Source: Escherichia coli (GTDB lineage Bacteria > Pseudomonadota > Gammaproteobacteria > Enterobacterales > Enterobacteriaceae). Taken from it: a stretch of DNA of 64,000 bases. Each line of letters begins with the position of its first letter. Positions within the stretch are counted from its first letter, which is position 1. Made by a program: the position numbers and the translations under genes. The stretch is taken from the NCBI RefSeq assembly GCF_046105845.1, contig NZ_CP151004.1. One strand, 5' to 3'. The notes under the pieces were generated by a model that saw only the letters and a program-made list of their open reading frames with translations, ran no database searches and was not told where the DNA came from. This document shows positions 12,559 to 12,770 of this stretch, in pieces.

Positions 12559-12564
12559 AAATAC

Positions 12565-12591
12565 AGGGCTGGAATCATCCGGCCCTTTTTT
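12565..12591 (+). terminator. Intrinsic terminator after bamC
   Basis: agggctgg-aatcat-ccggccct hairpin followed by a six-T run. Confidence 0.65.
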
Positions 12592-12601
12592 CTGATATGA
12601 T

Positions 12602-12617
12602 ACGCAAACGTGTGCGT
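12602..12617 (+). promoter_or_regulatory. PurR operator (pur box) upstream of purC
   Basis: ACGCAAACGTGTGCGT, a 15/16 match to the palindromic pur-box ideal ACGCAAACGTTTGCGT. Confidence 0.65.
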
Positions 12618-12663
12618 CGGCAGGAAAACGCCATTTTAGCGGTAATTCGCACGAAATTTGTTT

Positions 12664-12704
12664 GTCGGACGTAGTTCGGATAAGGCGTTCACGCCGCATC
12701 CGAC
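12664..12704. repeat. REP element (repetitive extragenic palindrome)
   Basis: gtcggacgtagttcggataaggcgttcacgccgcatccgac contains the canonical REP core CGGATAAGGCG...CGCCGCATCCG. Confidence 0.75.
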
Positions 12705-12770
12705 AAAACATCCAGCACACCAGACAGCAAAAGATTTTAAAACGTTAATTCACACCCAGGAGTGATAAAG

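What the first reader, a model, noticed from the sequence alone, without database searches (positions are those of the whole stretch)
12559..12770. purC leader region: near-perfect PurR box separated from the start codon by a REP element
ACGCAAACGTGTGCGT at 12602..12617 is a 15/16 match to the palindromic pur box. It lies about 150 bp upstream of the purC ATG, and a full REP palindrome (12664..12704) sits between the operator and the coding region. If the pur box is within or near the transcribed leader, as I recall being reported for purC, the REP element would be part of the 5-prime UTR and could affect mRNA stability or translation of this purine-regulated gene.
Basis: partly seen in the sequence, partly recalled or inferred. 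Interest (0 to 1): 0.3.

Follow-up and report, generated by a model that had tools for sequence, protein, structure and literature searches.

The report
E. coli purC operator and leader REP
This is the well-studied control region of the E. coli purine gene purC: the PurR repressor site sits on the transcription start, and a common genomic repeat (REP) is transcribed within the long leader, where it looks like an old, neutrally evolving insertion rather than a regulator.

Summary
ACGCAAACGTGTGCGT (12602-12617) is a 15/16 pur box, and a Y-type REP (core 12671-12705, outer palindrome 12661-12706) lies between it and the purC ATG (12771).

Two published genome-wide TSS maps of K-12 place the purC start at window 12608 or 12607, inside the pur box, giving a 163-nt leader. 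The REP is therefore at +64..+98 of the mRNA. PurR ChIP-chip shows occupancy at this 16-mer. The promoter is an extended -10 (TGaTATGAT, 12593-12601) that begins 2 nt after the mapped bamC 3' end.

New here: relatives with the identical pur box (C. freundii group, Enterobacter and others) have leaders of only about 60 nt. Escherichia (163 nt), C. koseri (139) and Salmonella (125, REP interior deleted) share an old insertion in which about 33 nt of the ancestral leader is duplicated on either side of the REP. The insertion is present in 5,425 of 5,426 E. coli genomes.

The REP and the distal leader copy vary at least as much as synonymous sites, with no compensatory changes. The proximal copy and Shine-Dalgarno are constrained. 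Term-seq lists no 3' end in the leader. An effect of the REP on purC expression is untested.

Verdict: real, correctly read, already known. Low interest.

The parts
11524..12558 (+). bamC (nlpB) coding sequence, upstream neighbour
   Evidence: ORF; annotated as bamC in E. coli genomes
12565..12591 (+). bamC intrinsic terminator (hairpin 12565-12586 plus T-run to 12591)
   Evidence: Terminator scan. Term-seq 3' ends at NC_000913.3 2597798/2597799, which are window 12591/12590 (Adams 2021 supplement)
12593..12601 (+). purC promoter, extended -10 (TGaTATGAT); the -35 region falls inside the terminator hairpin and has no good hexamer
   Evidence: The hexamer ends 7 nt upstream of the mapped TSS. 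Invariant in 14 sequences from 4 genera. The promoter assignment is inferred from position; the consensus scan found no -35/-10 pair
12602..12617 (+). PurR operator (pur box), -6 to +10 relative to the TSS
   Evidence: ChIP-chip motif ACGCACACGTTTGCGT (its reverse complement) in Cho 2011. The 16-mer or its reverse complement is present in 26 of the 80 species loci
12607..12608 (+). purC transcription start (published mapping transferred to window coordinates)
   Evidence: Kim 2012, 2595803(-), 5' UTR 163 nt. Romero 2014, 2595804(-), flagged as already in RegulonDB
12620..12652 (+). Distal (decaying) copy of the ancestral leader segment
   Evidence: Gapped local alignment with 12724-12755; 16 of 2000 shuffles score as well. 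Ungapped 13-nt repeat. 13 of 35 sites polymorphic
12661..12706 (+). REP element, Y type (GTAG 12671-12674, core hairpin 12675-12704), with an extra upstream copy of the 5' arm (12661-12669) that forms the outer palindrome
   Evidence: A median of 6 places per E. coli genome match the 401-nt query, and the one extra place shown falls on the REP core. The REP flanks are single copy
12724..12755 (+). Proximal (conserved) copy of the ancestral leader segment, collinear with the single copy in Citrobacter and Enterobacter
   Evidence: Alignments. 4 of 37 sites polymorphic across copy 2
12758..12762 (+). Shine-Dalgarno AGGAG
   Evidence: Sequence; invariant
12771..13484 (+). purC coding sequence (237 aa plus stop)

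Best explanation
This is the normal E. coli purC control region.

Transcription starts at A12608 (or A12607) from an extended -10 promoter (TGaTATGAT). The promoter begins 2 nt after the mapped bamC 3' end. The 16-bp pur box covers -6 to +10. PurR loaded with hypoxanthine or guanine would therefore block RNA polymerase at initiation; this mechanism is inferred from position and from the known pur regulon.

The mRNA has a 163-nt leader. About 100 nt of it is an old insertion shared by Escherichia, Citrobacter koseri and Salmonella. In that insertion, a Y-type REP with short spacers is bracketed by two copies of about 33 nt of the ancestral leader. The REP is therefore transcribed as a hairpin at +64..+98.

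The SD-proximal leader copy carries the constrained sequence. The REP and the distal copy behave as a neutral passenger with no demonstrable role in purC control.
For: Shown by published experiments on the same sequence in K-12:
- TSS at 2595803/4(-), with a 163-nt 5' UTR.
- PurR ChIP-chip peak and motif at this box.
- bamC 3' ends at the terminator, and no 3' end listed in the purC leader.

Shown here:
- The box is 15/16 and unique in the window.
- The 16-mer or its reverse complement is present in 26 of 80 species loci.
- The -10, box and T-run are invariant across Escherichia, Citrobacter, Pseudocitrobacter and RIT691.
- Box start to ATG is 168-169 nt in Escherichia against 65-69 nt in the C. 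freundii group, Enterobacter, Leclercia and others. This corresponds to leaders of 139 nt in C. koseri and 125 nt in Salmonella.
- The leader duplication is better than chance in E. coli (16/2000 shuffles) and in C. koseri (0/2000).
- The left copies share a derived TTCGC in all three genera.
- The best-ranked E. coli matches to an empty-site construct are all split by the insertion, and both REP flanks are present in 5,425 of 5,426 genomes.
- Polymorphic sites: REP 16/35, copy 1 13/35, purC third codon positions 23/80, copy 2 plus SD 4/52. Copy 2 plus SD against third positions gives p = 0.004.
- The REP stem has 0 compensatory pairs, 5 pairs with wobble changes and 5 pairs with disruptions, no better than shuffles.
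Against: - The insertion is fixed in all E. coli and in E. albertii. A strong hairpin is kept in nearly every haplotype, including one with two REP-core disruptions (-16.1 kcal/mol). That is compatible with some selected role.
- A quarter of the stem changes are G-U-preserving C-to-T changes on the 3' arm, which would also fit weak RNA-level selection.
- No experiment has compared purC expression with and without the REP.
- The Term-seq absence of a 3' end is threshold-dependent, and two of its three growth conditions are rich medium, where purC is repressed.
- The invariance of the -10 and box in the metagenome loci is partly by construction, because those loci were retrieved with that 25-mer.
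Confidence: 0.72

Rival explanations
1. The REP hairpin has been co-opted as a post-transcriptional element of purC in Escherichia. It could set mRNA half-life by protecting against or attracting RNases, act as a pause or partial attenuator, or change ribosome access to the start region.
For: - The REP is in the mRNA.
- The insertion is fixed in 5,425 of 5,426 E. coli genomes and in E. albertii.
- The hairpin is -17.3 kcal/mol with z = -2.4.
- Predicted SD accessibility is higher with the long leader (about 0.5 against 0.3 in Citrobacter), a weak in-silico result.
- The C-rich, G-poor stretch after the REP (12706-12730) looks rut-like (sequence).
Against: - The stem shows no compensatory changes, and its disruptions are no fewer than chance.
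- REP polymorphism is at least as high as at synonymous sites.
- Salmonella has deleted the REP interior, and most genera have none yet keep the same operator and SD region.
- No Term-seq 3' end and no purC entry among the 5' UTR 3' ends in Adams 2021.
- The whole-leader fold is not unusual (z = -1.2).
Confidence: 0.15
2. The REP matters at the DNA level. As a Y-type REP it could bind DNA gyrase or another REP-binding protein, and so influence local supercoiling at the closely packed bamC terminator and purC promoter.
For: The sequence is Y type (GCGTTCACGCC centre), read from the sequence and from my own knowledge of REP classes. It lies 60-100 bp from the promoter.
Against: It is a single REP, not a BIME-2 array. 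The REP core accumulates substitutions freely. Salmonella has lost it.
Confidence: 0.05
3. The main purC promoter lies downstream of the REP, so neither the REP nor the pur box is in the mRNA, and PurR acts from a distance or on another transcript.
For: The consensus scan finds no canonical -35/-10 pair anywhere in 12400-12900, so the sequence alone does not fix the promoter.
Against: Two independent TSS data sets and RegulonDB place the start at 12607/12608. Kim 2012 lists no second purC TSS. The TGnTATGAT next to the box is invariant. No -10-like hexamer with a usable partner lies between the REP and the SD.
Confidence: 0.03

Closest known systems
E. coli K-12 purC control region (purCp with PurR operator; Tiedeman et al. 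1990 J Bacteriol 172:6035; He et al. 1990; RegulonDB/EcoCyc)
   Same: It is the same locus. The window is 99.3% identical to K-12 over 12450-12850. The 16-mer, -10, TSS position, leader length, REP and SD are all the same.
   Different: There are only strain-level substitutions: 12631 C and 12712 A are private to the window, and K-12 has T at 12619. I could not read Tiedeman 1990, so I cannot verify whether that paper already remarks on the REP.
Other pur-regulon operators (purF, purL, purMN, purHD, purEK, purT)
   Same: They share a 16-bp imperfect palindrome with a central CG that overlaps core promoter elements, and repression acts at initiation (Cho 2011).
   Different: Here the box lies just downstream of the -10 and spans the start site (-6..+10). 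Many pur operators instead lie between the -35 and -10; Cho 2011 report 44% of them there. This box is also not a roadblock operator of the purB or purR type.
REP / BIME elements of enterobacteria (Stern 1984; Gilson 1984)
   Same: It is a roughly 35-nt imperfect palindrome with a GTAG foot. It is extragenic, transcribed, and present in many copies per genome.
   Different: It is a single REP, not a BIME. It lies in a 5' leader rather than between cistrons or after a stop codon. It is bracketed by a duplication of about 33 nt of host sequence.
ERIC/IRU insertions in enterobacterial intergenic regions
   Same: This is another dispersed repeat found in the same bamC-purC spacer, in Cedecea neteri and Klebsiella sp. 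BIGb0407. It shows that this spacer tolerates repeat insertions.
   Different: It is a different repeat family (about 126 nt) in different lineages, and it is not present in the window.

Membership tests
PurR operator (pur box) | 16-bp imperfect palindrome close to ACGCAAACGTTTGCGT with a central CG | tested here: met
   15/16 match at 12602-12617 with the central CG kept. About 0.0015 such matches are expected by chance in the window.
PurR operator (pur box) | Overlaps the promoter or start site of a purine or nucleotide-metabolism gene | tested here: met
   The box spans -6..+10 of the published purC TSS transferred to window coordinates.
PurR operator (pur box) | Bound by PurR with its corepressor | not testable with these tools
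   Published ChIP-chip on the identical K-12 sequence shows an adenine-enhanced peak with this motif (Cho 2011).
PurR operator (pur box) | Conserved at the orthologous position in related species | tested here: met
   The 16-mer or its reverse complement lies upstream of purC in 26 of 80 species loci, and weaker variants occur in Erwinia, Serratia, Morganella and others.
REP element (Y type) | Roughly 35-nt imperfect palindrome matching the REP consensus, with a GTAG foot | tested here: met
   GTAG at 12671-12674 followed by TTCGGATAAGGCGTTCACGCCGCATCCGACA. The hairpin is -17.3 kcal/mol. There is a partial hit to the REP-derived Rfam family naRNA4. The Y-type assignment comes from my memory of the consensus.
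REP element (Y type) | Many dispersed copies in the genome, all extragenic | tested here: met
   A second copy lies in the window at 17362-17387. Megablast finds a median of 6 places per E. coli genome for the 401-nt query, and the one extra place shown falls on the REP core. The REP flanks are single copy.
BIME (mosaic of two or more REPs) | Two or more REPs in alternating orientation with defined linkers | tested here: not met
   There is only one REP between 12618 and 12770. The extra 5'-arm fragment at 12661-12669 is not a second REP.
Cis-regulatory leader RNA (riboswitch or attenuator) | Match to a curated RNA family, or a terminator/antiterminator architecture | tested here: not met
   Rfam finds nothing at gathering score. 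No terminator-like site lies on the + strand between the TSS and the ATG. The leader fold has z = -1.2. Term-seq lists no 3' end.

The most novel reading that the evidence does not exclude
The locus preserves a footprint of how a REP was inserted. The REP sits between two copies of about 33 nt or more of the ancestral purC leader (up to about 45 nt in C. koseri). That would imply an insertion or repair mechanism that duplicates a long stretch of target, which is not expected for IS200/IS605-like RAYT-mediated movement. The insertion was then kept for the whole history of Escherichia, Salmonella and C. koseri, and may have been removed again in the C. freundii group by recombination between the two copies.
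Probability: 0.15. Interest if true: 0.4.

Novelty: already known. Interest (0 to 1): 0.15.

Why it matters
It matters little for purine regulation. The operator, promoter and TSS of E. coli purC are textbook, and this analysis only confirms them in this strain.

The comparative result has modest value. It gives a dated, lineage-specific example of a REP carried inside a 5' UTR for a very long time without signs of selection on its hairpin. It also shows an unusual long duplication of host sequence around the REP, which could inform how REPs spread. If the REP did tune purC expression, it would be a simple natural case of a selfish repeat recruited into a leader. The present evidence points the other way.

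Tried and rejected
- Tiedeman 1990 (PMC526926) and Thomason 2015 could not be read.
- The Cappable-seq supplement is truncated before 2.59 Mb.
- The Shigella M90T, ROSE and Conway 2014 supplements gave nothing for purC.
- Literature searches for 'purC' plus REP mostly hit 'purchased'. A whole-word search found no paper discussing the REP in the purC leader. One search failed on a syntax error and one returned nothing.
- The sigma-70 consensus scan found no promoter in 12400-12900. The promoter was therefore assigned from the published TSS and the extended -10.
- I looked for an E. coli genome with an empty site using a Citrobacter-like construct. None appeared among the best-ranked matches.
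- I tested whether the non-REP parts of the insertion are themselves repeats. They are single copy.
- I tested covariation in the REP stem. There is none.
- I considered a second promoter, a uORF (GTG at 12610, 9 codons, no SD) and an intrinsic terminator after the REP (no U-run). All were rejected on sequence.
- The 83-aa ORF on the - strand (12469-12720) overlaps the terminator and REP and is treated as spurious.

Full report
**What the window is.** The region is the dapA-bamC-purC-ypfJ-tmcA segment of an Escherichia coli chromosome. Window 12450-12850 is 99.3-99.5% identical to thousands of complete E. coli genomes. 5,405 of 5,426 genomes cover at least 80% of it.

**Check of the observation.** ACGCAAACGTGTGCGT lies at 12602-12617. 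It differs from the palindromic pur-box consensus at one position. It is the only match with up to 3 mismatches in 64 kb, and about 0.0015 one-mismatch matches are expected by chance. The purC ATG is at 12771; the mechanical ORF start at GTG 12762 is not the annotated start.

The REP core CGGATAAGGCGTTCACGCCGCATCCG is at 12677-12702, with GTAG at 12671-12674. A second copy is at 17362-17387 on the - strand, inside a two-REP BIME after a stop codon. The 401-nt query finds a median of 6 places per E. coli genome, and the one extra place shown in the output falls on the REP core. Rfam gives only a sub-threshold hit to the REP-derived naRNA4 family. It uses an extra copy of the REP 5' arm, and as RNA it folds at -17.3 kcal/mol, z = -2.4. 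All three descriptive claims are therefore correct.

**Where transcription starts.** The supplement of Kim et al. 2012 (PMC3415461) lists one purC TSS at NC_000913.2 2595803 (-), with a 5' UTR of 163 nt and upstream sequence ending ...CTGATATGATACGCAAA. That is window A12608, the seventh base of the pur box. Table S2 of Romero et al. 2014 (PMC4681348) lists a TSS at 2595804 (-), which is window 12607, and flags it as already recorded in RegulonDB.

The hexamer TATGAT (12596-12601) ends 7 nt before the start and is preceded by TG at 12593-12594. This is an extended -10 promoter, which explains why a -35/-10 consensus scan finds nothing. The Term-seq supplement of Adams et al. 2021 (PMC7815308) places the bamC 3' ends at NC_000913.3 2597798/9, which are window 12591/12590, the end of the terminator U-run. 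It lists no 3' end in the purC leader.

The layout is therefore very compact. The bamC mRNA ends at 12591. The purC extended -10 starts at 12593. The PurR box covers -6..+10. The purC mRNA starts at 12608. The REP is at +64..+98 of the leader.

**PurR.** Cho et al. 2011 (PMC3159470) report a ChIP-chip peak at purC. It is stronger with adenine, and its motif is ACGCACACGTTTGCGT at 2595794-2595809, the reverse complement of this 16-mer. Repression by occlusion of the start site is inferred from the position and from the established behaviour of the pur regulon. It was not tested here.

**Comparative anatomy.** Eighty species loci were retrieved with PurC. The 16-mer or its reverse complement is present in 26 of them. 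In Escherichia the box starts 168-169 nt before the ATG. In the Citrobacter freundii group, Enterobacter, Leclercia, Pseudocitrobacter, Phytobacter and others it starts only 65-69 nt before the ATG.

An alignment shows that the T-run, TGATATGAT and the box are invariant in 14 sequences from four genera. It also shows that Escherichia carries about 103 extra bases. The insertion is not a bare REP. A segment of the ancestral leader is present twice (12620-12652 and 12724-12755), with the REP and short single-copy spacers between the copies. The ungapped repeat is 13 nt, and the gapped alignment is reached by only 16 of 2000 shuffles.

A metagenome scan with the invariant 25-mer and exact-protein look-ups added two more leader types. 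Citrobacter koseri, identified by the protein's source names, has a 139-nt leader with its own REP and a clearer duplication (0 of 2000 shuffles). Salmonella enterica has a 125-nt leader with a TAAGAT -10 and the same box. In Salmonella only the two ends of the REP remain (ACAGGCCG...TCCGGCA).

The three long leaders align with one another. Their left copies share a derived TTCGC where the right copies and the short leaders have TTCAC. I infer a single old event before these lineages separated, followed by erosion in Salmonella. It cannot be decided from these data whether the C. freundii group never had the insertion or lost it by recombination between the two copies.

**Population data.** The best-ranked E. 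coli matches to an empty-site construct were all in two pieces, so none shows an unoccupied site. Both non-REP flanks of the insertion are single copy and present in 5,425 of 5,426 genomes.

I compared 36 distinct Escherichia haplotypes from genomes and metagenome contigs, including E. albertii. The fractions of polymorphic sites are:

| Segment | Polymorphic sites |
|---|---|
| Distal leader copy | 13/35 |
| Left spacer | 4/18 |
| REP | 16/35 |
| Right spacer | 6/13 |
| Proximal leader copy | 4/37 |
| SD to ATG | 0/15 |
| purC third codon positions | 23/80 |

The proximal copy plus SD is significantly less variable than third codon positions (p = 0.004). The REP is, if anything, more variable (p = 0.09).

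Of the 11 REP stem pairs, none shows a compensatory double change. Five show G-U-type single changes and five show disruptions. The score is no better than column shuffles. The invariance of the -10 and box is partly by construction for the metagenome loci. It holds independently for the genome-derived sequences.

**RNA-level checks.** The whole leader does not fold unusually well (z = -1.2). There is no terminator-like site on the + strand downstream of the TSS, and the REP hairpin is not followed by a U-run. Predicted SD accessibility is somewhat higher in the long Escherichia leaders than in the short Citrobacter leaders, about 0.5 against 0.3. I treat that as weak.

**Conclusion.** The finding is real, and its central inference is correct: the operator is at the start of the leader and the REP is inside the 5' UTR. 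It describes the known K-12 purC control region.

The further suggestion that the REP tunes purC expression is untested. The evolutionary pattern fits a neutral passenger better: free variation of the REP, loss in Salmonella, absence in most genera that keep the same operator and translation-initiation region, and no premature 3' ends.

What this analysis adds is the history of the leader. It contains an old REP insertion bracketed by a duplicated leader segment, and it is fixed in Escherichia.

I could not read Tiedeman et al. 1990. Whether the REP was already remarked on there rests on my unverified recollection.

Noticed in passing
L160 (metagenome contig OGEJ01004063.1), about 100 nt downstream of the pur box: The contig follows bamC, terminator, pur box and leader up to the REP. 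Inside the REP 3' arm it then switches to an unrelated coding region. This is either an assembly chimera at a repeat or a REP-to-REP rearrangement.
   Followed up: no
L022 (Cedecea neteri) and L027 (Klebsiella sp. BIGb0407), bamC-purC spacer: A dispersed repeat of about 129 nt, ERIC/IRU-like, occupies the same spacer in these species. It has a median of 10 copies per E. coli genome at 80-90% identity. No pur box with up to 3 mismatches is found within 500 nt of purC there. The spacer seems to be a recurrent landing site for repeats.
   Followed up: partly
L004, L005, L015 (Enterobacter, Leclercia), L014 (Phytobacter), L025, L026 (Pseudescherichia), purC upstream: These species have the identical pur box but lack TGnTATGAT upstream of it. 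Instead they have a good -10-like hexamer (CATAAT, TAGAAT, GATAAT) 3-8 nt downstream of the box. The promoter may have shifted around a fixed operator, so that the box covers the -35/spacer region there rather than the start site.
   Followed up: no
window 12631 and 12712: Two substitutions in the leader (C at 12631, A at 12712) are absent from all 5,426 complete E. coli genomes and from the metagenome haplotypes. The best identities for these segments are 98.2% and 97.9%. The window therefore comes from a strain or lineage not in that collection, possibly Shigella.
   Followed up: no
window 17330-17395 (- strand): A two-REP BIME lies directly after a stop codon, which is the typical REP location. 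One arm is the only other close copy of the purC-leader REP in the window.
   Followed up: no
window 12756-12799: A predicted hairpin pairs the SD region (CCAGGAGUGAU) with purC codons 7-10 (AUCGUGG). It recurs in the E. coli and Citrobacter folds. It may only reflect sequence conservation, and no covariation test was done.
   Followed up: no
window 12590-12608: The bamC mRNA 3' end (12590/12591) and the purC TSS (12607/12608) are only 17 nt apart. The purC -35 region lies within the bamC terminator hairpin.
   Followed up: partly
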